From IMG/VR virus record IMGVR_UViG_3300026290_000001: DNA of 64,000 bases, one strand, 5' to 3'. The stretch's first letter is position 1. Each line of letters begins with the position of its first letter. This document shows, piece by piece, positions 24,098-56,271 of this stretch. The DNA is from a virus. Below the pieces are notes generated by a model. The model had not been told where the DNA came from and searched no databases. It was given only the letters and a program-made list of their open reading frames with translations. The position numbers were made by a program, and so were the translations under genes.

Positions 24098-24112
24098 AGT
24101 GAGTGAATATCT

Positions 24113-25126
24113 TTGGATATTAAATTATTAAAAGAATACATATATGAAAACAATAGAATAGAAGATATTCTCCAACAAATAGGATGCCATTCAATAAAAT
24201 ATCATTCTTCAGGTTATTATACTTGTGGTAATATTGATGGTGACAATAAACAATCTGTTACTGTTTATAAAAATGAAAATTTAAATTGTATTAACTATAC
24301 AAGAGATATTGGCAATCCTTCTGATTTAATATCTTTAGTATGTTATAATACAAAATTATCTTTTTTTGATGCGTTAAAATATTTATGTAATCTATTAGGA
24401 ATTTCATATTACCATGATTTTGAAGAAGAAATACCAGAAAGTCTTCGTATTACCAAACTAATTTATGAAATGCAACAGGGAGAATATCAAAAAGAAGAAA
24501 GACCATTAAAACCAATTTCCGAAAAAATACTTTCATATTATAAACCATATTTAAACGATATGTTTTTAAATGATGGTATTTCTTATGAAACACAGCAAGA
24601 ATTCGAGATAGGATATGACGAACTGACCAATAGAATTACCATTCCTATAAGGTCAGAGATACATGATTTAATAGGGATAAAAGGTAGGTTATTTAAAGAA
24701 CATATAGACGAATGGGAACAAAAATATATCTATTTAGAACCTTGTGCCAGATCAAAAATATTATATGGACTACATAAAACATATCCATATATAAAACAAG
24801 AAGGTAAAGTTTTTATTACAGAATCAGAAAAAGGCTGTTTGCAACTTTGGTCTATGGGATATTGTAATTCTGTTGGAATAGGTGGTAAGAAAATATCATC
24901 TCAACAAATAGAAAAACTTACTCGTTTAGGAGTAGATTTAATTTTTTGCTTTGATAAAGATGTTACAAAGAAAGAAATAGAAAATATAGCAGATAGATTT
25001 GTTGATGGTGTAAATATTTTTTACTTATTTGACGATAAAGATATTTTGGAAGAAAAAGAATCACCGTCTGATAATCAAGAAAAATTTAAATACTTACTAA
25101 ACAACTGTTTATATAAAATAAAATAA
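24113..25126 (+). CDS. DNA primase, TOPRIM domain
   Basis: N-terminal Cys/His cluster (CHS…H…C); TOPRIM-like ITESEKG … FCFDKD. Confidence 0.55.
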   Translation: MDIKLLKEYIYENNRIEDILQQIGCHSIKYHSSGYYTCGNIDGDNKQSVTVYKNENLNCINYTRDIGNPSDLISLVCYNTKLSFFDALKYLCNLLGISYYHDFEEEIPESLRITKLIYEMQQGEYQKEERPLKPISEKILSYYKPYLNDMFLNDGISYETQQEFEIGYDELTNRITIPIRSEIHDLIGIKGRLFKEHIDEWEQKYIYLEPCARSKILYGLHKTYPYIKQEGKVFITESEKGCLQLWSMGYCNSVGIGGKKISSQQIEKLTRLGVDLIFCFDKDVTKKEIENIADRFVDGVNIFYLFDDKDILEEKESPSDNQEKFKYLLNNCLYKIK

Positions 25127-25146: not shown

Positions 25147-26880
25147 ATGCAGTATAAATTAATAAACAATAGTTTAAATGATATTTATAATCCTAAAGAA
25201 ACTGTTCTTAGAAATAGAGGGATTGAAGACGTAGACGCATATTTGAATTTAGATGATAGTGTGCTAATACATTATAGTGAGTTGGACAATATAGGTAAAG
25301 CAGTTCAATGTTTGTTAAAACATTTAGAGAATGATAGTGAAATACATATTTTAGTTGATCCAGATGCTGATGGTCAGACTTCATCTGCAATAATGTATAG
25401 ATATTTAAAATTAATAAAACCAGATGTAAAGTTAACATATTCTATACATACTGGCAAGCAACATGGATTATCTAGGGATGTTGAAATGCCTGAAAATATA
25501 GATTTGTTAATAATGCCCGATAGTGGAAGTAATGATATAGAAAAATGTCAAGAACTTAAAGAAAATGATATTGATATACTTATATTGGATCACCATGAAA
25601 TTAATAACCCTAATCCTTATGCAATAGTAGTTAATCCACAAAACTGCAATTATGCCAACAAAAGCATTTCAGGAGTAGCAGTAGTTTATAAATTCCTTCA
25701 AGCACTTGATGAAGAATTGTGGAATGATTATGCTGATAACTTTCTTGATTTAGTTGCGCTTGGGTTAATAGGTGATTCTATGGATATCAAACAATTAGAA
25801 ACTAAAAGACTTATAGATAAGGGTTTATCTAAAATAAGAAGTAAACTATTCAAGGCACTTATTGATAAACAATCATATTCTATGAATAATATTATAAATA
25901 TAAATAATGTCCAATTTTATATAGTACCATTAATCAATGGTTTAATACGTGCAGGTGACTATGACGAAAAAGATTTATTGTTTAGGGGATTTATTGAAAC
26001 GGATGAAGTGTTTAAATACAAACCTAGAAGAAAATCAAAAAATGATCCAGAACCAGAAGAAATTGACGAGGATATATATACTAGGGTAGCAAGGTTATGC
26101 AGTAATGCTAGACAAAGACAAAATAATTCTAAAGATAAAGATGTTGAAAAACTGCTTGAATATATAGATGAAAAAGAATATAATAATAATAAAATAATAT
26201 TTGTTAATGTTACAGATAAATTAAATGAAAATTTAACTGGACTTGTTGCAATGAATATTGCGACAAAATACAATAAACCCTGTTTGTTATTAAGGAAAGT
26301 TAAAAATAAACCAGATTATTATGCAGGAAGTGCTAGAAATATTAATAGATCACCACTTCCAAACTTAAAGGATTATTTGGAAGAAACAAATATGTTTGAA
26401 TACTGTCAAGGTCATCAAGGTGCATTTGGTGTGGAAATACATAAAGATAATATACCAAAAGCAATTGAATTAATTAATGAGCAATTGAAAAATGTTGATT
26501 TTGCTTCATACTATGAAGTTGATTTTATTATTGATATTGATGATTTAGACATTAGTTTTATTAAAACAATGGATGAATTAAAAGATTTTTATGGACAGGG
26601 TATTGGAGAAGCATTAGTTTATATTAGTAATATAAAAGTAAGTAGAAATGATATTAATTTTATGGGTAAAGATAATAGTACTATTAAATTTGTATATAAC
26701 GATGAAATAACTTTTATAAAGTTTAGAATTGGAGAGAATGATCCAATTTATAAATGGTTAAATGATTGGGAAAATGATGATGATTTTATTGTTATTAATG
26801 TGATAGGTAAAGTAGGACTGAATAATTACAAAGGCATTTTAACACCACAGGTGATAATTGAAGATTATCAGGTAATATAA
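25147..26880 (+). CDS. DHH-family phosphoesterase, RecJ-like ssDNA exonuclease
   Basis: DHH motifs DPDADG and LDHHE. Confidence 0.7.
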   Translation: MQYKLINNSLNDIYNPKETVLRNRGIEDVDAYLNLDDSVLIHYSELDNIGKAVQCLLKHLENDSEIHILVDPDADGQTSSAIMYRYLKLIKPDVKLTYSIHTGKQHGLSRDVEMPENIDLLIMPDSGSNDIEKCQELKENDIDILILDHHEINNPNPYAIVVNPQNCNYANKSISGVAVVYKFLQALDEELWNDYADNFLDLVALGLIGDSMDIKQLETKRLIDKGLSKIRSKLFKALIDKQSYSMNNIININNVQFYIVPLINGLIRAGDYDEKDLLFRGFIETDEVFKYKPRRKSKNDPEPEEIDEDIYTRVARLCSNARQRQNNSKDKDVEKLLEYIDEKEYNNNKIIFVNVTDKLNENLTGLVAMNIATKYNKPCLLLRKVKNKPDYYAGSARNINRSPLPNLKDYLEETNMFEYCQGHQGAFGVEIHKDNIPKAIELINEQLKNVDFASYYEVDFIIDIDDLDISFIKTMDELKDFYGQGIGEALVYISNIKVSRNDINFMGKDNSTIKFVYNDEITFIKFRIGENDPIYKWLNDWENDDDFIVINVIGKVGLNNYKGILTPQVIIEDYQVI

Positions 26881-26892
26881 AGGGGAATAGAT

Positions 26893-27732
26893 ATGAGTTA
26901 TATAATAGATTTATACACCCAAGGCAATTCTGCGTTAAAAATTTCTAAACAAGAAAATATTCCTGTTCATCAAATATACAAAATATTGGAAAAAAACAAT
27001 ATTCCAAGAAGAAGCAATCGAATAAATAATAAAAAATATAGTTGCAATGAAGATTATTTTGAGAATATAAATACGTCAGAAAAAGCATATTGGTTAGGTT
27101 TTTTATACGCTGATGGCTTTGTTTCAAAAAATGAAAAATTTTATAATAGAGGATCGTTAGGAATATCTTTGGCAATAGAAGACAAAGAACATTTAGAAAC
27201 ATTAAATAAAGATTTAAATTCAAATTATCCTATAAACATATATAGTGTAGTTAATGGTTATAAAATTGGTATTCAATATGCAAGAATAATTATTAAAAGT
27301 GAAAAAATATTTAATGATTTGATTGATAAGGGTTTAAGTGAAAGAAAATCAGAGATTAAAAAACGTCCAAAAAAAATACCAGAAGAATTAATTAAATATT
27401 TTATACTTGGATATTTTGATGGGAATGGTTGTATTTCAATACATAGAAGAAAAAATAATGATAAGTTGGATTTTAAATTTAGAATTACAAGTACAGATGA
27501 TGTATTATATTTTATTACAGATTATTTATATAACAATAAATTAATATACAATAAAAGAAAATTAGACAAACGACACATATACGATATTGTCTCTAATTTA
27601 GAATACGGAGGAAATAGGCAAGTATATAAAATTATGCACCATCTGTATCAAAATACACCCAGATTTTTAAAAAGAAAACATGAAAGATATTTAATATTAA
27701 AAAATCAACTTATGAAAGAAGGGGAAATATGA
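26893..27732 (+). CDS. free-standing LAGLIDADG homing endonuclease
   Basis: Two LAGLIDADG-type motifs (LGFLYADGF, LGYFDGNGC) about 100 aa apart. Confidence 0.7.
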   Translation: MSYIIDLYTQGNSALKISKQENIPVHQIYKILEKNNIPRRSNRINNKKYSCNEDYFENINTSEKAYWLGFLYADGFVSKNEKFYNRGSLGISLAIEDKEHLETLNKDLNSNYPINIYSVVNGYKIGIQYARIIIKSEKIFNDLIDKGLSERKSEIKKRPKKIPEELIKYFILGYFDGNGCISIHRRKNNDKLDFKFRITSTDDVLYFITDYLYNNKLIYNKRKLDKRHIYDIVSNLEYGGNRQVYKIMHHLYQNTPRFLKRKHERYLILKNQLMKEGEI

Positions 27733-30700
27733 TTAATTTACATGTTCATGATGCAAAAGGTTCATTGTTGGATTCTATTGCAACAGTTGATAAAATAGTT
27801 GAATTTGCAAAAAAAAATAATCAAACTGCGATAGCATTAACCAATCATGGACTTATGACTTCATTTGTTGATTTTGTGAAAGAATGTAATAAAAATGATA
27901 TTAAACCTATCATTGGATGTGAAATTTATGAAACTGATGACATGCATGAGAAGCAAGACACTAGAGATTATCAACAACCAAGATATCATTTAATATTATT
28001 GGCAAAAAATAAGATTGGTTTGCAAAACTTATTTAAAATAGTATCTATTTCCAATACAGAAGGTTTTTATAAAAAACCAAGAGTATCCTTAGATTGGATT
28101 GAAAAAAATAATTGTGGGAAAGGAATTATATGTTTAACTGCTTGTCAAGCAGGTAGATTAAGTAAGTATTTAATTAATGATAAAGAATTAGAAGCAATAC
28201 AATTTGTTAAACAATTGCAATCTATATTTGATTATGTGTCATGTGAGATACAATCCCATAAAACGATTGATCAGCACAATGCAAATAAAAAAATATATGA
28301 ATTTTCACAAAAATATAATTTGCCTTATGTTATTACCACTGATGCTCATATGATAAATAAAAATGAAATTGACACTCATACAATTTTTGTTGAAATCGGA
28401 GAAGGAAGAGAAGTAGGAGAGAGTTATGTTGATTGTTATTTACAAACAGATTCAGATGTTTACAATATTTTAGAAAAACAATTTTCAAAAGAAATTATAA
28501 AAGAGGGTATTAATGAAACTATTTTAATTTCAAATATGATTGAAAATATTGATATTGGTTTAAATAATGGTGTTATAATGCCTAAAATACCTGTGCAAGA
28601 AGGATTTAATTCAAATAAAGAATATTTGAGACATTTAGTTTTCAAAGATTTTGAAAAAAAGTTTTCTCATTTATTAGCAGAAGATCAACAAATAAGAAAA
28701 GATAGACTTGAAATGGAATTGCCTATTTTATATGAGTTAAATTATACAGATTATTTTATTATGTTATATATGTTGGTAGAAGAAGCAAAAAAGAGGGATA
28801 TCCCAAGAGGGTATTCTAGAGGTTCAGGAGCAAATTGTTTATGTCTTTATATGTTAGGTGTAACTCAAATAGACAGCATTAGATGGGACTTAGATTTTTC
28901 AAGATTTGCTAATTTGGGTAGAAAATCAATTGCTGATTTTGATTTTGATATTTCCAAAAATAGACGAAAAGAATTTATTGAAATATCGGAAGAACTTTTT
29001 GGGAAAGAGAATGTTGCACCAATTGCTACATTTAATACTTTAAGTACAAAAGTAGCAATAAGAGACGTTGGTAAAGTATTAGATGAAAAATCAGAAGAGT
29101 ATAAAGGTAAGATACCTTATAAATTACGTGATGAAGTGGCAAAGATGATACCTACTATTAATACTATAAATGATTTAGGTGAGGAAGAAGAAAAAGAAGT
29201 ATTATTAAGAGATGTGTTGTTTAAAAACGAAAGATTAAAAGAAATATATGAGCAATATCCCTTGTGGTTTAAGTATGTTATGGAATTAGAAGGTTTGCCT
29301 AAAAGCATGGGTAGACATGCAGCAGGAACTATAATAACTCCCAATCCAGTTGTTGAATATTGTCCTATTTGTTATGATTCTGAAGATAATATTATGATTC
29401 AATTAGAAATGCATTCAGCAATGGATGATTTAGGTTTAACTAAAATGGATTATCTTGGACTTGAAACAGTAGACATTGTAGATGACACATTAAGAATGGC
29501 AGGATTAACTTGGGATGATGTAAATATAGATCACTTAAACCTTGAGGATTCAGAAGTATATGAAAAAGTTTATAAAAGTGGCAATACCATTGGAATATTT
29601 CAAATGGAATCTGCTGAGGCAAGAAGAATGTGTATAGAGGCAGAAGTTGATAATGTAGAAGATATAATAGTCATTAATGCAGCAAACCGACCAGGAACAA
29701 AAGACAATTTCCCTGATTATTGTAAAAACAAAAAATATCCCAATGAAATTGAAGTGTTGCATGAGGATTTGAAGAAAATATTTAATAAAACTCAATATGT
29801 TTTACTTTATCAGGAGCAAGCATTACAGTTATTTAGATACGCTGGTTTTCCTGAAGAAGAGGTAGATTCTGCGAGAAGAGCAATTGGGAAAAAATTGAAA
29901 GATGAAATGGAAAAATTAGAGATTAAGTTTAAAGAGGGATTGTTAAACAAAAATTGGAATGAAGATCAGATTAATGAAATATGGGGACTAATGCTTAAGC
30001 AAGCCGATTATTCGTTTAATCGAGGGCATGCCGTAGCATATGGTTTACTTAGTTATCTTACAGCATATTTAAAAACGCATTATCCTTTAGAATTTATGAC
30101 AGCATGTTTAACCGCTAAGAGTGATAATATGTCAAAATTAAGTATCTTTATTAATGAATGTCACAGGTTAAATATTCAAGTTGCACCACCAAACATTAAT
30201 TTATCAGAACGAAATTTTACTGCAATAAAAAATAAAAATAAAATATTATTTGGATTATATGCAATTAAAGGCATAGGAGATGCAGTAGTAAATACAATCA
30301 TAGAAAATAGAAGATATGAAGGGTTTGATGACTTTTTATCTAAAACAAAGGAGTCTGGAAAGATAACCAAAGGAACAATTATCAAGTTGGCAAAAAGTGG
30401 TTGTTTTCCAACAAAAAATAAAAGAAATTTTTTGCTTAGATATGCAAATAAATTATTTGAAAATGATTATAAAAATGAAATTTTTGAAGAAAGAAAAACT
30501 TTTAAATCAGTTAAGGAATTAAAAGAAGTATGGGGAATTGATACTGATACAATCAAAAATAAGCAAGAGAGACTTAAATTATTCAATCAAAAAAGAAAAG
30601 AAAAATTTGACAATGAAGAAGTAGATAGAACATTCAAAAAAGAAGATGCCCGACAAAAATATATTAAAGAATTTTCGTCAAAATATTTACAAGAAGAATT

Positions 30701-31061
30701 TATGTGGGAGTTTGAAACTTTATCAATGTTTATTACATATAACCCATTAAAAGAAGCATATAAATATGTTACTCCTTGGGACGAAGTAGACGATGGAGAA
30801 AAAGCAGTTGCTATCTGTGTAGTTGTAGACATTAAAAGAAAAAAAGATAAAAACAACAATACTTTTGCCTATTTAGACTTATATACTCCTTATGGGATAA
30901 TTGAAGCTACTTGTTGGGCAAGGCAATATAAAAACTTTAATGATTTAATTAAAAAAGGGAATAGTCTTGCAATTTTAGGACGGAAAAGAGATGGACAGTT
31001 TTTTGTTGAGTCAATGAAAACCTATCAGCAATGGTTAAAAGATAGAAATATAAACAACTAG
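27729..31061 (+). CDS. dnaE: DNA polymerase III alpha subunit, DnaE type with N-terminal PHP domain
   Basis: N-terminal PHP motif INLHVHDAKGSLLDS; 1110 aa; polymerase core and C-terminal OB-like region. Confidence 0.8.
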   Translation: MINLHVHDAKGSLLDSIATVDKIVEFAKKNNQTAIALTNHGLMTSFVDFVKECNKNDIKPIIGCEIYETDDMHEKQDTRDYQQPRYHLILLAKNKIGLQNLFKIVSISNTEGFYKKPRVSLDWIEKNNCGKGIICLTACQAGRLSKYLINDKELEAIQFVKQLQSIFDYVSCEIQSHKTIDQHNANKKIYEFSQKYNLPYVITTDAHMINKNEIDTHTIFVEIGEGREVGESYVDCYLQTDSDVYNILEKQFSKEIIKEGINETILISNMIENIDIGLNNGVIMPKIPVQEGFNSNKEYLRHLVFKDFEKKFSHLLAEDQQIRKDRLEMELPILYELNYTDYFIMLYMLVEEAKKRDIPRGYSRGSGANCLCLYMLGVTQIDSIRWDLDFSRFANLGRKSIADFDFDISKNRRKEFIEISEELFGKENVAPIATFNTLSTKVAIRDVGKVLDEKSEEYKGKIPYKLRDEVAKMIPTINTINDLGEEEEKEVLLRDVLFKNERLKEIYEQYPLWFKYVMELEGLPKSMGRHAAGTIITPNPVVEYCPICYDSEDNIMIQLEMHSAMDDLGLTKMDYLGLETVDIVDDTLRMAGLTWDDVNIDHLNLEDSEVYEKVYKSGNTIGIFQMESAEARRMCIEAEVDNVEDIIVINAANRPGTKDNFPDYCKNKKYPNEIEVLHEDLKKIFNKTQYVLLYQEQALQLFRYAGFPEEEVDSARRAIGKKLKDEMEKLEIKFKEGLLNKNWNEDQINEIWGLMLKQADYSFNRGHAVAYGLLSYLTAYLKTHYPLEFMTACLTAKSDNMSKLSIFINECHRLNIQVAPPNINLSERNFTAIKNKNKILFGLYAIKGIGDAVVNTIIENRRYEGFDDFLSKTKESGKITKGTIIKLAKSGCFPTKNKRNFLLRYANKLFENDYKNEIFEERKTFKSVKELKEVWGIDTDTIKNKQERLKLFNQKRKEKFDNEEVDRTFKKEDARQKYIKEFSSKYLQEEFMWEFETLSMFITYNPLKEAYKYVTPWDEVDDGEKAVAICVVVDIKRKKDKNNNTFAYLDLYTPYGIIEATCWARQYKNFNDLIKKGNSLAILGRKRDGQFFVESMKTYQQWLKDRNINN

Positions 31062-31072
31062 GAGATAAACAA

Positions 31073-34000
31073 ATGAATCAAACCACTAACCAAATATATG
31101 AATTTAAAGCAACACCGATATTTGAAAGGTATTATAATGACGAAACAAATTGGGGAGTATATAACTTCACCACTACAGATGATATTCCCCATTGTAATGA
31201 TTATAATGATCCTTTTCAAGAAAACTATACTGATAATATTAAACAAAGTACTTTAGTGGGTAAGTGTCAACAACTTTTTCTTGGTTCTGAATACATAGTA
31301 AATGCTAAACTTGAATACAATTCAAAATATAAAAAACACCAGTATGTACCTATTAATGTTACTGCAATTGTTCCTAAATCCGAACAATCACAAAGAGCAT
31401 TTTTAGAAGCAATAATTACCAAAAAACAAGCAGATATATTACTTGAAGTATATCCTAATATTGTTGAAGATACTATCAATGGGAATACGGACAATATTGA
31501 TTTGTCAAAAACTAAAGGTATTAAAGATTATACTTGGAATTATATTAAGGAAAGAATTATTAATAATTATGTAATATCAGATATTATTACATTGCTTCAA
31601 CCTATTGGTGTTACTTATTCAATGATTAAAAAACTATTAATGCACTATGGCAATCCTACTTTACTTAAAAATGATTTGTTAGACAATCCATATATTTTAA
31701 CTAAGATTTATGGATTGGGTTTTAAAAGAGTAGATGGATTGGCATTAAAATTAAAACCAGAATTAAAAGTATCAAATAAAAGGACTTATGCTTTTTTAAA
31801 TTATTATCTAAGAGAAATAGGAGAATCAAACGGTCATACATGGGTTACTTTTGATTTTCTTGAGAATGCAGTTCGTGACAATATTATTGAATGTGAAGAA
31901 TTGTATTATAAAATTTTAGATGTTGAAAGAGATACACAAGCATTATTATATATTGATGATGAAAAAAATAGAATTGGGTTAAAATATTATAGAGATATTG
32001 AAATTGCTATTTATGATATTTTAAAAGAATTGGATAGTTATAAGTCTGATTGGGATTTAGATGTTGAGAAGGGGATACAGCAAGCAGAAAAAGAACAAGG
32101 ATTTGAATTTTCTGATGAGCAAAAAAATATTATTAAAGAATCAGTAAAACATAATGTTGTTAGTATTTCAGGCAAGGCAGGTTGTGTTGATTGTGATACT
32201 GAATATTTTAATGGAATTGAATGGATTAAAATATCAAAATATAAAAATAAAGATAAGGTATTACAATATAATAAAGATGGGAGTGCTGAATTAGTTACCC
32301 CCTTAGAATATCATAAGTATCCGGCAGAATATTTATGGCACTTTGAAACAAAGTATGGATTAGATCAATGTTTATCAGATGAACATAATGTATATTACAT
32401 AACTTCAAAAAATAATTTATATCACAAAACATTTAAGGAAGTTAGAGAAAATCATAATACAACTGGATTTAAAGGTAGATTTATTACTACTTTTAATTAT
32501 GAAGGTAAGGGATTACCTTATAATGAATGGGAAATAAGATTAAAAGTAGCAATAAAGGCAGATGGTAGTTTTTATAGTTCAAATCCTTATACTTGTTATA
32601 TTAATGTTAAAAAACAAAGAAAAAAAGATAGAATTGAATACTTGTTAGATAAAAATAATATAAATTATGAAATAATGAAAAGTGGGGAAGGATATAATAG
32701 ATATAAGTTTACATATTTAGATAACGAAAAAACATACACTAATGAATGGTATAATTGTAATAAGGAACAATTTAAAATCATTTTTGATGAAATATTTTAT
32801 TGGGATGGAAATTTTAATGATAGAGATCAATATTATACTTCATTAAAATCGGATGCAAATTTTATTCAATTTGTAGGAACAACATTAGGTTATAAATCAA
32901 CTATTCAAATTCAAAACAGATTAAATAGAAAATATAAAACTGCTGGAAAAGAATATACTAGAAAATCAATTGGTTATATAGTTGTTTTTACAAAAAGAAA
33001 TTTAATAGGTTTATGTTCAGACTCAAGAGAGGATCATACAAAAACCCCAATTATTCAATATAAAACATTAGATGGTTTTAAATATTGTTTTACCGTTCCT
33101 TCAGGTATGTTAGTTTTACGTAGAAATAATAAAATATTTATTACCGGGAATTCAGGTAAAACCACTATTTCTAGAGCATTACTAACAATATATAAAAATG
33201 CAAATAAAACAATAGGAACCTGTGCACTTTCTGCCAAAGCTGCACAACGTATCACTGAAGCAACTGGTTTTCAAGCATCTACTATTCACCGTTTATTAGG
33301 AGCAAAAGGATTAAATGAATTTACTTTTAATTATGAAAATCCATTACCTTATGATGTGATTTTAGCAGATGAATGTAGTATGAATAATGCAAGAATTTTT
33401 TATGATTTGATCTCAGCAATTAAACCAGGATCGAAATTAATCATGTCTGGTGATTGTCGGCAGTTACCTCCTATTGGTTTTGGGAACATTTTTAGTGACG
33501 TTCTTGAATTAAAAGAGCAATTTAATATTTATGAACTTACTAAAGTACATAGGCAAGCAGAAAAATCAGGAATATTAACCGATGCTAATCTAATTAGAGA
33601 GGGTATTAATCCTATTCAACAACCTGAATTTAAAATTGTTAGTGGTGAATTGCAAGACATGTACTACATGTTTAGAGATAATAAACAAGCATTAAATGAT
33701 ATTGCAATTAAAATGTATTTAAAATCAATTGAAGAAGATGGGTTGGATGATGTTATAATTATTACTCCAAGAAAAAAAGATTGTATTAATAGTACTATTG
33801 AAATTAATAGAATAATTCAAGATAAATTAATTAGTGACAATAAACCATTTTTAAAAAAGGGTAATTTAAAATTTAAACTTGGTGCAAAGGTAATTCAAAG
33901 AGTAAATAATTATGATAAGAATATTTTTAATGGTGAAATAGGATATATTGTTGATATTTTTAAGGCAAAACCTACAGATGAATATGACAATATGTTTACA

Positions 34001-34282
34001 GTACAATATCCTAGTAAAACCATTACCTATTCAAAGAACGAATTGGATCAGATTGATTTAGCATATGCCCTTACGATCCATCTCGCACAGGGTAGCGGAT
34101 ATAAAACTACAATAGTTATTATTGATAATTCTCATTATATTTTACTTGATAGTTGTTTACTTTATACAGGTATTACTAGAGCGAAACAAAGGTGCTTATT
34201 ATTGGCTGAACCTTCAGCATTTAAAAAATGTATTGTTAATAATAAAAGTATTGAAAGGCAAACATGGTTTAAAGAATTTTAA
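31073..34282 (+). CDS. RecD-like (superfamily 1) DNA helicase with an apparent intein in the P-loop
   Basis: C-terminal AYALTIHLAQGSGYKTT and LLYTGITRAK; Walker A split as ISGKAG / SGKTT by a 323-aa insert. Confidence 0.7.
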   Translation: MNQTTNQIYEFKATPIFERYYNDETNWGVYNFTTTDDIPHCNDYNDPFQENYTDNIKQSTLVGKCQQLFLGSEYIVNAKLEYNSKYKKHQYVPINVTAIVPKSEQSQRAFLEAIITKKQADILLEVYPNIVEDTINGNTDNIDLSKTKGIKDYTWNYIKERIINNYVISDIITLLQPIGVTYSMIKKLLMHYGNPTLLKNDLLDNPYILTKIYGLGFKRVDGLALKLKPELKVSNKRTYAFLNYYLREIGESNGHTWVTFDFLENAVRDNIIECEELYYKILDVERDTQALLYIDDEKNRIGLKYYRDIEIAIYDILKELDSYKSDWDLDVEKGIQQAEKEQGFEFSDEQKNIIKESVKHNVVSISGKAGCVDCDTEYFNGIEWIKISKYKNKDKVLQYNKDGSAELVTPLEYHKYPAEYLWHFETKYGLDQCLSDEHNVYYITSKNNLYHKTFKEVRENHNTTGFKGRFITTFNYEGKGLPYNEWEIRLKVAIKADGSFYSSNPYTCYINVKKQRKKDRIEYLLDKNNINYEIMKSGEGYNRYKFTYLDNEKTYTNEWYNCNKEQFKIIFDEIFYWDGNFNDRDQYYTSLKSDANFIQFVGTTLGYKSTIQIQNRLNRKYKTAGKEYTRKSIGYIVVFTKRNLIGLCSDSREDHTKTPIIQYKTLDGFKYCFTVPSGMLVLRRNNKIFITGNSGKTTISRALLTIYKNANKTIGTCALSAKAAQRITEATGFQASTIHRLLGAKGLNEFTFNYENPLPYDVILADECSMNNARIFYDLISAIKPGSKLIMSGDCRQLPPIGFGNIFSDVLELKEQFNIYELTKVHRQAEKSGILTDANLIREGINPIQQPEFKIVSGELQDMYYMFRDNKQALNDIAIKMYLKSIEEDGLDDVIIITPRKKDCINSTIEINRIIQDKLISDNKPFLKKGNLKFKLGAKVIQRVNNYDKNIFNGEIGYIVDIFKAKPTDEYDNMFTVQYPSKTITYSKNELDQIDLAYALTIHLAQGSGYKTTIVIIDNSHYILLDSCLLYTGITRAKQRCLLLAEPSAFKKCIVNNKSIERQTWFKEF
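32183..33151 (+). other. candidate intein (Hint plus LAGLIDADG-like endonuclease domain) in the helicase Walker A motif
   Basis: Starts CVDCDT (Cys1, DT at 5-6); ends ITGN with +1 Ser; internal IKADGSF and FYWDGNF about 100 aa apart; removal restores GKAGSGKTT. Confidence 0.5.
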
Positions 34283-54448: not shown

Positions 54449-55741
54449 TCAGTCATGAGATGAATTGGCTCTGTTCTGTTCATATATAATCCATGATTTT
54501 CTTGCATTAATTCTTTGCATGTTAGATATTTTCGGTGTCTTCATACCTCTGGGTGCATTACTAAAATCTATTTTTTCACCATCTATACCCATAAGAATGG
54601 CATAACCCGTAGACATTCTACCTTTAATAAAATATTCATTACCTATATACCTTACTTTATCAAACTTCCTAAATCCTTCTATTTTACCTGTAGGTATCTT
54701 CTGATGACTTCTTACTCCTTTTGCCTGTTGGTAATCGCCTTTAGGGATACACTTTTTTAATACAGCTTTTTCAGTTTTAAAGCTTACATCAATTAACCCT
54801 ATATCTTCAATATTATTTAAACAGGCAATAGCTACAGCATCGTAGTAATGCTCTTTTGGTAATCCCATTAGCTGTCTATGTTCTTTGGTAATAAATCCAA
54901 AGGTTTCTTTTGCATTTGGTAGCTGTCTTAATAATTGTTGTCTTATACTATTCATCTGTGTTGTGTGTTTTAATTGTCCTTTAATTTTACCATTCTTCTT
55001 TAATTTAATTCCTCCTTTGTGCAAACTATTATGACAAGTTTTACAAAGTGTAATTAAATTTTCTGCATCATCTGAGCCACCATTTTTTCTAAAAACTATA
55101 TGATGTACCTCTAATCTGCTGTCTTTACTTTTTCCTTTGCAATACTGGCAAATATATTTATCTCTACTTAATACATAAGCTTTAGTATTAGCAAATCCAT
55201 AATTAGTTCCTTTTTGATAAAGCCATTTATTACTTAATACTGCTGGATTTTTTAAAGCATGTGGGTCAAATGTTGCTGTTTCTATTATTATATTTGTAAT
55301 GGGCATTATTGATTTTGCAAAATCAATTTCTTTTAAGTGTGAATTAATTTTACTTGTCATTGTAGGAGAAAATCTATCTTTTTTAATGCTGTTTTTCCTA
55401 TTATTAAATCTAGGTTCCCTATATCTAGTTTTCCTATTCCTTCTAGTTCTCCTATATTTAGCTCTTTTGTCCATTTTGTCAGATATATCATTTCTAATTT
55501 CTACTTCTGATATATAATACACTTCATTTTCGTCATTTGCTACTGCACTTCCTATTTTACTACTACCAGTATCAATTCCTAAAGTTAAATCTTGTGTATA
55601 GTCTGTAGCATGATATAGTAATTTAATTGTAAATGGAGTTCTTCTTATGCATTTTGCTTTACCATCTTTTAACAATAATCTTGCTATTGCTGGTTTACAA
55701 GGCATTAAAGGACTCCCATCTTCATTAATTACATAAACCAT
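54449..55741 (-). CDS. iscB: IscB, OMEGA-family RNA-guided endonuclease (PLMP domain, split RuvC, HNH)
   Basis: PLMP (EDGSPLMPCKPAIARLLLKDGKAK); RuvC-I LGIDTGSSKIGSAV; RuvC-II IIIETATFD; HNH CQYCKG…HHIVFRKNGGSDDAENLITLCKTCH; RuvC-III PKEHYYDAVAIAC; 430 aa; RBS AAAGGA. Confidence 0.8.
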   Translation of the reverse strand: MVYVINEDGSPLMPCKPAIARLLLKDGKAKCIRRTPFTIKLLYHATDYTQDLTLGIDTGSSKIGSAVANDENEVYYISEVEIRNDISDKMDKRAKYRRTRRNRKTRYREPRFNNRKNSIKKDRFSPTMTSKINSHLKEIDFAKSIMPITNIIIETATFDPHALKNPAVLSNKWLYQKGTNYGFANTKAYVLSRDKYICQYCKGKSKDSRLEVHHIVFRKNGGSDDAENLITLCKTCHNSLHKGGIKLKKNGKIKGQLKHTTQMNSIRQQLLRQLPNAKETFGFITKEHRQLMGLPKEHYYDAVAIACLNNIEDIGLIDVSFKTEKAVLKKCIPKGDYQQAKGVRSHQKIPTGKIEGFRKFDKVRYIGNEYFIKGRMSTGYAILMGIDGEKIDFSNAPRGMKTPKISNMQRINARKSWIIYEQNRANSSHD

Positions 55742-56025
55742 AAAATCAAATCCTTTCGGATAAATACTCTGCTTAAAAGCAGGTTATGCGTATCTATATA
55801 CTATTACCATATATAGAATTCGTCCTCATCTCGACAATGATAAAATAGCTTATATGTATATCACACCGAGCCTTACCCTCCAACTCTACTTAGTGATATA
55901 CGATAGAGCAATGGTCTGATGCGTCAACCAAAGGTATCATAACTATTCTATCGTAGTATAAATTTCTCTATACTAAGTCTGGTGAACTTAGACTTTAGAA
56001 GCCTCCGACTTTAGTCGGGGGTAGT
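55742..56025 (-). ncRNA. candidate omegaRNA of the IscB locus
   Basis: ~280-nt non-coding stretch directly 5' of iscB; GC well above surroundings; nested inverted repeats (GTGAACT…CCGACTTTAGTCGG…AGTTCAC at 55982-56030; GTATATCAC/GTGATATAC; CTGCTTAAAAGCAG). Confidence 0.4.
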
Positions 56026-56271
56026 TCACTCTATTTCAGGATTGATAGATAAATCATCTTTGCTTGTACTATTTACATTAGATAAATTATCTTCATTGGA
56101 CAAATCATCATTAATAATTTGACTTAATTCGTCTATTTTAGAACTTAATTTGATAATCTCTATCTGATACATATTATTTTGTAAACATAAAGTGACTACA
56201 TCTAAGGGCAAATTACTATTGTTTATTAACTCTGCCAGTTTAATATTAAAATCACTTATAATAAAAATCAC
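56026..56271 (-). CDS. hypothetical protein
   Basis: 81-aa ORF; overlapping plus-strand ORF 56192..56539 is hydrophobic low-complexity and less plausible. Confidence 0.35.
   Translation of the reverse strand: MIFIISDFNIKLAELINNSNLPLDVVTLCLQNNMYQIEIIKLSSKIDELSQIINDDLSNEDNLSNVNSTSKDDLSINPEIE

What the first reader, a model, noticed from the sequence alone, without database searches (positions are those of the whole stretch)
26893..27732. Free-standing LAGLIDADG homing endonuclease between recJ-like and dnaE genes
A double-motif LAGLIDADG protein with an N-terminal HTH-like region sits between two essential replication genes. Its frame overlaps the dnaE start by 4 nt, typical of a selfish homing endonuclease gene parked in an intergenic site. 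Together with the intein and IscB this phage carries three different selfish-nuclease types.
Basis: partly seen in the sequence, partly recalled or inferred. Interest (0 to 1): 0.45.

Follow-up and report, generated by a model that had tools for sequence, protein, structure and literature searches.

The report
Free-standing LAGLIDADG homing endonuclease beside dnaE
This is a real selfish homing-endonuclease gene wedged between a phage's recJ-like and DNA polymerase (dnaE) genes; it is present in some close relatives and exactly absent in others, sits at the edge of a swapped polymerase gene, and has an unusual Asn in one of its two catalytic sites, but it is an ordinary kind of element.

Summary
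The ORF at 26893..27732 (+, 279 aa) is a two-motif LAGLIDADG protein with an N-terminal three-helix HTH. It lies 12 nt after the recJ-like stop, and its TGA overlaps the dnaE ATG (ATGA).

The homing-endonuclease reading is supported. Relatives show exact presence/absence at this junction in two phage clades.
- HEG present: window/L004, L043, L044, L042, and L010/L024/L025/L041.
- HEG absent: L002, L003, L006-8, L021, L011.

dN/dS is 0.18.

New findings:
1. Against L002, with about 99% identical flanks, the window differs by one cassette, 26903..31072. The window has the HEG plus a whole dnaE; L002 has a dnaE only about 36% identical in protein.
2. The HEG's first 10 nt are the dnaE start of the HEG-less relatives.
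3. In clade 2, dS drops from about 1.0 to 0.3 across the HEG site.
4. The closest non-syntenic homologues examined sit inside dnaE, one in a confirmed group I intron.
5. The second metal-binding position is Asn (DGNG), a change that arose at least 8 times in the family, while D74 is invariant. The enzyme may therefore nick DNA or be attenuated.

Verdict: a new member of a known kind, of moderate interest.

The parts
25147..26880 (+). recJ-like ssDNA exonuclease gene (upstream neighbour, complete)
   Evidence: Pfam DHH and RecJ_OB; phrog_2484 E=5e-163 over residues 1-576. The last ~1 kb (25888-26902) is 96-100% identical to HEG-less L002.
26882..26885 (+). Shine-Dalgarno (GGGG) used by the HEG; the same sequence serves dnaE in HEG-less L002
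   Evidence: Read directly from the sequence.
26893..27732 (+). HEG ORF: 279 aa, N-terminal HTH plus two LAGLIDADG motifs
   Evidence: dN/dS 0.18 against the L042 copy. GC 0.230 against 0.255-0.282 in neighbouring genes.
26893..26902 (+). Left junction: ATGAGTTATA (M-S-Y), identical to the first 10 nt of dnaE in HEG-less L002 and L003; similarity to those genomes stops after 26902
   Evidence: The HEG N-terminus is about 10 aa shorter than the family norm: 4 residues before residue 5, against a mode of 14 in 108 HTH-bearing homologues.
26896..26994 (+). N-terminal three-helix HTH-like DNA-binding region (residues 2-34)
   Evidence: AF2 helices at 2-9, 14-21 and 25-34. Weak HTH_7 and TrmB hits. 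phrog_1303 'DNA binding protein'. The family profile hits 2lvs and the Sleeping Beauty PAI subdomain.
27088..27120 (+). LAGLIDADG motif 1 (YWLGFLYADGF); metal-binding Asp74 at 27112-27114
   Evidence: D74 is invariant in 121/121 family members.
27400..27432 (+). LAGLIDADG motif 2 (FILGYFDGNGC); Asn178 (AAT, 27424-27426) where the family consensus and characterised enzymes have Asp/Glu
   Evidence: D in 102/121 and N in 19/121 members; at least 8 independent D-to-N changes.
27721..27732 (+). Internal GGGG Shine-Dalgarno for dnaE (27721-27724) inside the HEG 3' end, and the ATGA stop/start overlap (27729-27732)
   Evidence: Read directly from the sequence.
27729..31061 (+). dnaE ('B' allele, 1110 aa, uninterrupted), which travels with the HEG
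   Evidence: Pfam and PHROG hits. 83% aa identity to HEG-less L006-8 but only ~36% to the dnaE of the otherwise near-identical L002.
26903..31072 (+). Swapped cassette relative to L002: HEG from codon 4 onward, the whole of dnaE-B and the dnaE-recD2 spacer
   Evidence: No blastn similarity to L002 for 26903-30403 and only 42-75% identity up to 31048. The flanks 25888-26902 and 31109-31828 are 96-100% identical.
27732..27773 (+). Candidate target / self-immunity patch (dnaE codons 2-15). Speculative.
   Evidence: Both HEG+ lineages read TTG TTG at codons 13-14; HEG- relatives read TTA TTA or TTA CTT. TTG is 17% of Leu codons. L011 (HEG-) against L024 (HEG+) shows 8 synonymous mismatches in the first 45 nt, which is in the top ~4% of such windows.

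Best explanation
The ORF is a free-standing, monomeric two-motif LAGLIDADG homing-endonuclease gene with an extra N-terminal HTH. It belongs to a large family whose members characteristically live in or next to phage dnaE genes.

Shown: it is a dispensable insertion at the recJ-dnaE junction, segregating as presence/absence in two phage clades. It is kept under purifying selection. In both clades it lies exactly on a boundary of genetic exchange.

Inferred mechanism: the gene is co-transcribed with recJ and dnaE. The protein recognises a long site in HEG-less genomes near the junction, most plausibly the first ~15 codons of dnaE, and breaks the DNA. During mixed infection, repair from the HEG-carrying genome copies the HEG and drags the adjacent dnaE with it. 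Where the two dnaE alleles are too divergent to recombine, the whole polymerase gene is carried along. In the window's lineage this gave a recombinant whose left joint fused the resident dnaE start (RBS + ATGAGTTATA) onto the HEG and whose right joint lies at the recD2 start codon.

Because the second metal-binding residue is Asn, the break may be a nick or a slow sequential cut, converted to a double-strand break by replication. This would resemble the nicking HNH homing enzymes of other phages.
For: - Identity and fold.
- Free-standing: a 12-nt upstream spacer, ATGA overlap downstream, both neighbours complete, and no Rfam intron at gathering threshold in the window.
- Presence/absence: in L002 and L003, dnaE starts at the same RBS and ATG that the HEG uses. 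L006-8, L021 and L011 have recJ directly abutting dnaE-B. In clade 2 the HEG cassette is a clean 861-nt indel (L024 4134-4994 against L011).
- Purifying selection: dN/dS 0.18 over 837 nt with dS 0.46.
- Exchange boundary, clade 1: the cassette is 26903-31072, and the flanks are 96-100% identical to L002.
- Direction of the swap: dnaE-A in L002 against L003 is 85% nt identical, in line with recJ at 80%, so dnaE-A is resident in that backbone.
- Exchange boundary, clade 2: dS is 1.01 (recJ) and 0.85 (primase) upstream, against 0.30 (dnaE) downstream of the HEG site.
- Family association with dnaE: homologues 34-44% identical are inserted at DnaE residue ~403-405. This was seen in L070, L071/72 (Rfam group I intron, 66 bits), L073, Bacillus phage 0305phi8-36 (annotated mobile intron), Lysinibacillus LC76P1 and Alicyclobacillus KKP_3916.
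- Active site still in use: D74 is retained in all 19 N178 sequences across at least 8 independent lineages, and N clades persist down to 53-64% identity.
- Literature: free-standing phage HEGs cluster next to essential genes and bracket exchanged regions (PMC10448857). Nick-initiated homing is discussed in PMC3017599.
Against: - No enzymatic activity or target site can be shown here.
- The metal-binding pair in characterised LAGLIDADG enzymes is D or E (PMC6294521). One-site D-to-N mutants of single-chain I-CreI and I-MsoI lose double-strand cleavage, and only mMsoI keeps some nicking (PMC2655683).
- The target/immunity signal in dnaE codons 2-15 is weak (about the top 4% of windows, two lineages).
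- The left joint of the cassette lies inside the ORF start rather than in homologous recJ. It therefore needed a microhomology or illegitimate event, which is not what simple double-strand-break repair predicts.
- Ordinary modular recombination at gene boundaries could give the same mosaic without any help from the HEG.
- L042 shows the same HEG start followed by unrelated sequence, which is unexplained.
Confidence: 0.72

Rival explanations
1. A catalytically dead or decaying HEG in the late phase of the homing cycle. It once homed but now only hitch-hikes with the dnaE-B allele, and Asn178 has abolished cleavage.
For: N178 sits at a position where characterised enzymes need D/E (PMC6294521). 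One-site D-to-N single-chain mutants lose DSB activity (PMC2655683). The N-terminus is ~10 aa shorter than the family norm. GC is lower than in the neighbours. The D-to-N change is a single G-to-A transition, favoured in a 28% GC genome.
Against: The ORF is intact, with dN/dS 0.18 at dS 0.46. The N variant persists within clades diverged to 53-64% identity and arose at least 8 times, while D74 never changed: 0 changes against 8, binomial p about 0.004 under equal neutrality. The 54%-identical N-type copy in clade 2 still shows a clean presence/absence polymorphism.
Confidence: 0.17
2. The HEG is a bystander. The dnaE cassette swap and the clade-2 breakpoint reflect ordinary modular phage recombination at short conserved gene-boundary sequences, and the HEG merely lies inside or next to the exchanged module.
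For: Both cassette ends coincide with gene starts (ATGAGTTATA; recD2 ATG) and short conserved RBS-like strings. Other mosaic patches between the window and L002 occur where no HEG is present: 24103-24388 and 25288-25800 at 59-84% identity.
Against: Breakpoints coincide with the HEG position in two independent clades. A second boundary, a drop in identity at 31829-32186, coincides with the intein insertion site. This is the pattern described for HEG-bounded exchange (PMC10448857).
Confidence: 0.3
3. A domesticated LAGLIDADG/HTH DNA- or RNA-binding protein (WhiA-like regulator or maturase-like factor) that serves the phage, for example by controlling dnaE expression through translational coupling.
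For: JGI labels one homologue (P0009) as WhiA. bI3 maturase is among the top structural matches. One catalytic residue is lost. The gene is under purifying selection and overlaps dnaE in an ATGA.
Against: The gene is dispensable: close relatives with the same dnaE-B type lack it (L006-8, L021, L011). There is no intron in the window's dnaE for a maturase to serve. WhiA has its HTH at the C-terminus and lacks both acidic residues, whereas here D74 is invariant. dnaE has its own Shine-Dalgarno.
Confidence: 0.06
4. An intron- or intein-encoded endonuclease misread as free-standing.
For: The nearest non-syntenic homologues examined are intron-encoded or otherwise inserted inside dnaE.
Against: RecJ and DnaE are both complete. 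There are 12 nt upstream and a 4-nt overlap downstream, so no ribozyme fits, and Rfam finds no intron at gathering threshold in the window. The ORF has its own start and stop and is not in frame with a host protein.
Confidence: 0.01

Closest known systems
Free-standing homing endonucleases of T4-like and ICP1 phages (Seg/Mob; 'intronless homing'; HEG-bounded exchange, PMC2988022, PMC2790892, PMC10448857)
   Same: A stand-alone HEG inserted between conserved replication or nucleotide-metabolism genes. It is polymorphic among relatives, lies next to an essential gene, and sits at a boundary of allele exchange and co-conversion.
   Different: Those enzymes are GIY-YIG or HNH/T5orf172; this one is a LAGLIDADG enzyme with an N-terminal HTH. 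Activity is untested here, and the co-transferred segment is an entire, ~36%-identical replicative polymerase allele.
Monomeric two-motif LAGLIDADG enzymes I-AniI (1p8k), I-HjeMI (3uvf), I-Tsp061I (2dch), I-OnuI family
   Same: The same pseudo-dimeric fold (Foldseek E 1e-11 to 1e-8; profile hit to 2dch at 6e-9). The first-motif catalytic Asp is present.
   Different: Sequence identity is only 12-23%. This protein has an extra N-terminal three-helix HTH. The second metal-binding residue is Asn instead of Asp/Glu. It is free-standing in a phage rather than intron-encoded in organelles or archaea.
Bacillus phage 0305phi8-36 gp36 ('mobile intron protein' inside the DNA polymerase III alpha gene), with unannotated equivalents in Lysinibacillus phage LC76P1 and Alicyclobacillus phage KKP_3916
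   Same: The same protein family (34-44% identity, HTH plus two motifs) and the same host gene, phage dnaE.
   Different: Those copies interrupt dnaE at the residue equivalent to window DnaE ~403-405. 0305phi8-36 is annotated as a mobile intron, and the metagenomic equivalent L071 has an Rfam group I intron hit. The window copy sits upstream of an uninterrupted dnaE.
F-CphI next to psbA in cyanophage S-PM2 (a free-standing HEG beside the gene it targets; PMC6083498 and my own knowledge of Zeng/Bonocora/Shub 2009)
   Same: A free-standing HEG sits directly beside a conserved gene that, in related phages, carries an intron at a conserved site. This illustrates the proposed route between free-standing and intron-encoded HEGs.
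   Different: The nuclease family differs (Endo VII-like). For the window HEG, no target has been mapped.
WhiA (degenerate LAGLIDADG plus HTH transcription factor)
   Same: It combines a LAGLIDADG scaffold with an HTH, and one homologue is auto-annotated as WhiA.
   Different: The domain order is reversed. WhiA lacks catalytic acidic residues and is a conserved chromosomal gene. This gene keeps D74 and is a dispensable, polymorphic insertion.

Membership tests
LAGLIDADG homing endonuclease (monomeric, two-motif) | Two LAGLIDADG motifs in one chain forming the pseudo-dimeric alpha-beta-beta-alpha-beta-beta-alpha fold | tested here: met
   Pfam LAGLIDADG_3 above its cut-off. Motifs at residues 66-76 and 170-180. 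AF2 pLDDT 91.9 and Foldseek top hits I-AniI, I-HjeMI, I-Tsp061I and I-OnuI.
LAGLIDADG homing endonuclease (monomeric, two-motif) | An acidic (D/E) metal-binding residue at the end of each motif | tested here: not met
   Motif 1 has D74, invariant in 121/121 members. Motif 2 has N178, where 102/121 homologues have D. The D/E requirement is from PMC6294521. One-site D-to-N single-chain mutants lose DSB activity (PMC2655683).
LAGLIDADG homing endonuclease (monomeric, two-motif) | Site-specific cleavage of a long (~20 bp) target in the element-less allele | not testable with these tools
   Only a weak candidate patch at dnaE codons 2-15.
Free-standing phage HEG ('intronless homing') | Own ORF between intact host genes, not inside an intron or intein | tested here: met
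   RecJ and DnaE are complete. There is a 12-nt spacer upstream and an ATGA overlap downstream, and Rfam finds no intron at gathering threshold in the window.
Free-standing phage HEG ('intronless homing') | Presence/absence polymorphism at the same locus among related genomes | tested here: met
   HEG present: window/L004, L043, L044, L042, L010/24/25/41. HEG absent: L002, L003, L006-8, L021, L011.
Free-standing phage HEG ('intronless homing') | Co-conversion or exchange tracts that begin at the HEG | tested here: met
   The cassette is 26903-31072, and the flanks are 96-100% identical to L002. dS steps from 1.0 to 0.3 across the HEG site in clade 2. The causal role of the HEG is inferred, not shown.
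Free-standing phage HEG ('intronless homing') | Target-site differences that protect the HEG-carrying genome | tested here: inconclusive
   TTG TTG in both HEG+ lineages against TTA TTA or TTA CTT in HEG- genomes. A cluster of 8 synonymous differences in the first 45 nt of dnaE is in the top ~4% of windows.
Group I intron-encoded HEG | ORF embedded in a group I ribozyme that interrupts a host gene | tested here: not met
   Rfam finds no intron at gathering threshold in the window, and there is no non-coding space. By contrast the homologue in L071 has an Intron_gpI hit of 66 bits.
Intein-encoded HEG | In-frame fusion within a host protein, with Hint splicing blocks | tested here: not met
   The ORF has its own start and stop codons, and there are no Hint or intein Pfam hits.
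WhiA-like LAGLIDADG/HTH regulator | N-terminal degenerate LAGLIDADG domains lacking acidic residues, a C-terminal HTH, and a conserved housekeeping gene | tested here: not met
   The HTH is N-terminal. D74 is conserved. The gene is dispensable among relatives.

The most novel reading that the evidence does not exclude
The DGNG sub-lineages of this family, including the window's gene, may be natural LAGLIDADG nicking homing endonucleases. In this reading one active site (D74) is retained and the other is repeatedly converted to Asn (at least 8 times). Homing would be driven by a strand-specific nick that phage replication converts into a break. This may be a less toxic strategy for an element sitting next to the replicative polymerase gene. 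I know of no natural strict LAGLIDADG nickase.
Probability: 0.2. Interest if true: 0.6.

Novelty: new member of a known kind. Interest (0 to 1): 0.36.

Why it matters
Free-standing homing endonucleases next to essential phage genes are well known, so the finding itself is ordinary. Three points add value.

1. Two phage genomes with about 99% identical flanks carry replicative polymerases only ~36% identical in protein. The breakpoint lies at the first codons of a homing-endonuclease gene. This is a clear natural example of a selfish nuclease marking, and possibly driving, wholesale replacement of an essential replication gene.

2. One protein family occupies both a group I intron inside dnaE and a free-standing position in front of dnaE. 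This is useful material for studying how mobile introns and free-standing HEGs interconvert.

3. The Asp-to-Asn change recurs in only one of the two active sites. That is a cheap, testable lead toward natural LAGLIDADG nickases, which would interest genome-editing work.

Tried and rejected
- Megablast of the 5.9-kb region against GenBank phages found nothing, so relatives had to come from IMG/VR and metagenomes.
- The metagenome scan with the HEG added only one close relative, L044.
- I first read the right breakpoint of the cassette as about 30404, from the blastn HSP. A sliding-window alignment showed the HSP had simply run into the weakly similar dnaE 3' end. The true boundary is the recD2 start at about 31073.
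- I tested whether the HEG targets the ancestral intron site at DnaE codon ~404. In clade 2 the HEG+ and HEG- genomes are nearly identical there, so the idea was dropped as unsupported.
- The promoter/terminator scan was uninformative: 59 promoter-like sites against 57.6 expected, and no terminators. This is merely compatible with co-transcription.
The cause may be a chimeric low-coverage contig or a third arrangement.
- Rfam found no intron for the L044 dnaE insertion and only a weak hit in L073.
- Pfam found nothing in the intein-like insert of the helicase.
- The intron-encoded, intein-encoded and WhiA-like readings were considered and rejected on anatomy (see the membership test).
Full report
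**1. The observation**

The window holds an ATG-initiated ORF at 26893..27732 on the + strand (279 aa).
- It starts 12 nt after the stop of a recJ-like gene (25147..26880), behind a GGGG Shine-Dalgarno at 26882-26885.
- Its TGA overlaps the ATG of dnaE (27729..31061) in an ATGA.
- Pfam gives LAGLIDADG_3 (E=4e-7, above the curated cut-off), LAGLIDADG_1 just below its cut-off, and weak HTH_7/TrmB matches at residues 3-34.
- PHROGs gives phrog_4645 'endonuclease' at E=5e-52 over almost the whole protein.
- The neighbours are complete. RecJ-like has DHH + RecJ_OB and matches phrog_2484 over residues 1-576. DnaE has PHP, DNA_pol3_alpha, finger, HHH_6 and OB domains from residue 2.
- The two motifs are YWLGFLYADGF (residues 66-76) and FILGYFDGNGC (residues 170-180).
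- An AlphaFold2 model built on a 30-sequence alignment is confident (pLDDT 91.9). It shows three N-terminal helices followed by two alpha-beta-beta-alpha-beta-beta-alpha halves.
- Its best Foldseek matches in the PDB are monomeric LAGLIDADG proteins: I-AniI, I-HjeMI, bI3 maturase, I-Tsp061I and the I-OnuI group. A family profile hits I-Tsp061I by sequence.

**2. Is it a mobile, free-standing element?**

The window is IMG/VR contig 3300009647_000134, and a 99.6-kb contig from another sample is identical over the locus. GenBank phages hold no close DNA relative. IMG/VR, ENA, JGI and Logan do.

Clade 1 (the window's own group):
- HEG present in the window/L004, L043 (99% aa), L044 (99.6% aa) and L042 (85% aa).
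- HEG absent from L002 (RecJ 90% aa), L003 (79%), L006/7/8 (74%) and L021 (58%).

Clade 2 (RecJ 38% aa, DnaE 68-73% aa):
- A 54%-identical HEG occupies the same recJ-dnaE junction in L010/L024/L025/L041.
- It is cleanly missing from L011. L011 aligns to L024 on both sides of an 861-nt indel at L024 4134-4994.

The gene is not decaying. Against the L042 copy, dS is 0.46 and dN/dS is 0.18, compared with 0.08 for the adjacent recJ segment. There is no room for a ribozyme, Rfam finds no intron at gathering threshold in the window, and the ORF has its own start and stop. It is free-standing.

**3.

blastn of L002 against the window gave three results:
- similarity up to window 26902;
- nothing from 26903 to about 30400;
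- similarity again downstream.

Finer alignments show the last ~1 kb before the junction (25888-26902) is 96-100% identical, and 31109-31828 is 97-100% identical. The dnaE 3' end is only 42-75% identical. The intergenic spacer before recD2 differs, and identity resumes at the recD2 ATG (31073).

The DnaE proteins of the window and L002 are about 36% identical overall, ranging from 20% to 57% in 60-residue windows. The window's DnaE ('B' type) is 83% identical to that of HEG-less L006-8. Two genomes with almost identical flanks thus differ by one cassette, 26903..31072: HEG plus the whole of dnaE-B, against dnaE-A alone.

The left joint is inside the first ORF. The sequence ATGAGTTATA (M-S-Y), with its ribosome-binding site, is the start of dnaE-A in L002 and L003 and the start of the HEG in the window and L042.

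Several observations bear on the direction of the event:
- The HEG's N-terminus is about 10 residues shorter than usual: 4 residues before residue 5, against a mode of 14 in 108 HTH-bearing homologues.
- MSY/MSF is also how several other DnaE proteins in these loci begin.
- dnaE-A of L002 and L003 have diverged in step with their recJ genes (85% against 80% nt).

I infer that dnaE-A is resident in this backbone. The window's lineage then acquired HEG + dnaE-B, and the left crossover fused the resident dnaE start onto the HEG. This direction is an inference, not a demonstration.

**4. The same boundary in clade 2**

Between L011 (HEG-) and L024 (HEG+), synonymous divergence is 0.85 in the primase gene and 1.01 in recJ. 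It falls to 0.30 in dnaE immediately downstream of the HEG site. In two independent clades the HEG therefore lies at a boundary of genetic exchange. This is the pattern described for phage HEGs by Barth et al. (PMC10448857) and for T4 Seg/Mob enzymes (PMC2988022, PMC2790892).

A further drop in window-L002 identity (31829-32186, 75-90%) abuts the intein-like insert of the helicase.

**5. The family lives in and around phage dnaE**

The three non-syntenic top hits whose contexts I looked up (P0006, P0010, P0015; 40-44% identical to the window HEG) are inserted inside dnaE at the position of window DnaE residue ~403-405. That is beside the catalytic DFDxD motif. In L071 a group I intron is detected just downstream of the ORF (Rfam RF00028, 66 bits, E=3e-16).

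The same arrangement is found in three cultured phages:
- Bacillus phage 0305phi8-36, annotated 'coding region interrupted by a mobile intron';
- Lysinibacillus phage LC76P1, unannotated;
- Alicyclobacillus phage KKP_3916, unannotated.

A more distant member splits a recJ-like gene in L060.

L044 is 99% identical to the window over 26096-31185. It carries a precise 1073-nt insertion at window 30029|30030 (DnaE H767|A768) with a second HTH-LAGLIDADG ORF. The window's dnaE is thus an 'empty site' for another element.

The window's gene is therefore the free-standing form of a dnaE-associated HEG family. This is the situation discussed for F-CphI/psbA (PMC6083498; the Zeng/Bonocora/Shub work is from my own knowledge).

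**6. The active site**

The metal-binding residue of motif 1 (D74) is invariant in 121/121 aligned family members. The equivalent residue of motif 2 is Asn178 in the window (AAT, 27424-27426). It is Asp in 102 and Asn in 19 of the 121.

On an NJ tree with Fitch parsimony, the D-to-N change arose at least 8 times. It persists in clades whose members have diverged to 53-64% identity, including the window + clade-2 HEGs. Zero changes at D74 against at least 8 at position 178 is unlikely if both sites were neutral (binomial p about 0.004).

Characterised enzymes use D or E at both positions (PMC6294521). Single-chain I-CreI or I-MsoI with one site changed to Asn lose double-strand cleavage, and mMsoI keeps some nicking (PMC2655683). 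Nick-initiated homing is known for phage HNH enzymes, and replication is thought to convert the nick into a break (PMC3017599).

My reading is that the protein is still a working enzyme, given the purifying selection, the retained D74 and the polymorphic distribution. It may nick DNA or cut slowly. This is inference; a decayed enzyme is the main rival.

**7. Target**

No target can be established computationally. The a priori place to look is the DNA next to the insertion.
- In clade 2, the first 45 nt of dnaE carry 8 mismatches between HEG- and HEG+ genomes, all synonymous. This is in the top ~4% of 45-nt windows.
- Both HEG+ lineages read TTG TTG at dnaE codons 13-14, where HEG- relatives read TTA TTA or TTA CTT. 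TTG is only 17% of Leu codons here.

This is a lead, not evidence. The ancestral intron site at codon ~404 shows no HEG+/HEG- distinction in clade 2.

**8. Expression**

No promoter enrichment or terminator was found between 24000 and 31500. This is compatible with co-transcription of recJ, the HEG, dnaE and recD2. dnaE has its own GGGG Shine-Dalgarno inside the HEG's last codons (27721-27724), so it need not depend on coupling.

**9. Verdict**

It is a new member of a known kind: a free-standing phage homing endonuclease next to an essential gene. Three features make it a somewhat better than average example:
- the fusion of the HEG to the resident dnaE start, together with en-bloc replacement of the polymerase gene;
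- the family's dual life as a dnaE-intron and a free-standing element;
- the recurrent one-sided Asp-to-Asn change.

The host is unknown. The closest cultured DnaE is from Clostridium phage Amboise at 48% identity, one relative comes from an anaerobic-digester metagenome, and window GC is 28%.

Noticed in passing
window 32186..33157 (within the RecD2-like helicase ORF 31073..34282): A 972-nt in-frame, intein-like insert splits the Walker A loop (GKAG | C...N | SGKTT). It is absent from L002. Window-L002 identity drops to 75-90% just upstream of it (31829-32186). Pfam finds no Hint or LAGLIDADG domain, although ADG/DGN-like strings are visible. GC is 0.24.
   Followed up: partly
window 54449..55741 (-) and 55819..56029 (-): An IscB-type ORF (RRXRR E=2e-54, HNH E=4e-14) lies directly downstream of a HEARO RNA (RF02033, 121.7 bits, full length).
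   Followed up: partly
window 30029|30030 (DnaE H767|A768); L044 3935..5007: L044, 99% identical to the window over 26096-31185, has a precise 1073-nt insertion here with a second HTH + two-motif LAGLIDADG ORF (292 aa, canonical DGDG, 25% identical to the window HEG). The upstream exon ends in T and the insert ends in G, as in group I introns, but Rfam gives no hit. The same DnaE position is interrupted in L034 (~1060 nt), L026-L040 (210 nt) and Alicyclobacillus phage KKP_3916.
   Followed up: partly
L070, L071/L072, L073; L074 (Bacillus phage 0305phi8-36), L075 (Lysinibacillus phage LC76P1), L076 (Alicyclobacillus phage KKP_3916): Homologues of the window HEG (34-44% identity) interrupt dnaE at the residue equivalent to window DnaE ~403-405, beside the catalytic DFDxD motif. 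L071 has a clear group I intron hit. In LC76P1 and KKP_3916 all the pieces are annotated 'hypothetical protein', so split dnaE genes and their HEGs are unannotated in GenBank.
   Followed up: partly
A new ORF begins MKGFLVTAGP. It is either a third arrangement or a chimeric 2x-coverage contig.
   Followed up: partly
L060 4258..6514: A more distant family member (39% over residues 49-187) sits inside a recJ-like gene, splitting it at about residue 146-148. The family therefore also invades the other neighbour gene in other phages.
   Followed up: no
window 24103..24388 and 25288..25800: Further mosaic patches between the window and L002 (59-84% identity) lie inside otherwise 93-100% identical primase and recJ sequence. 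These recombination tracts are not associated with any recognisable nuclease gene.
   Followed up: no
L074 1318..1827 (Bacillus phage 0305phi8-36 gp239): A gene annotated 'mobile nuclease' overlaps the start of that phage's dnaE. This is another cultured-phage case of a nuclease gene lying directly upstream of dnaE.
   Followed up: no
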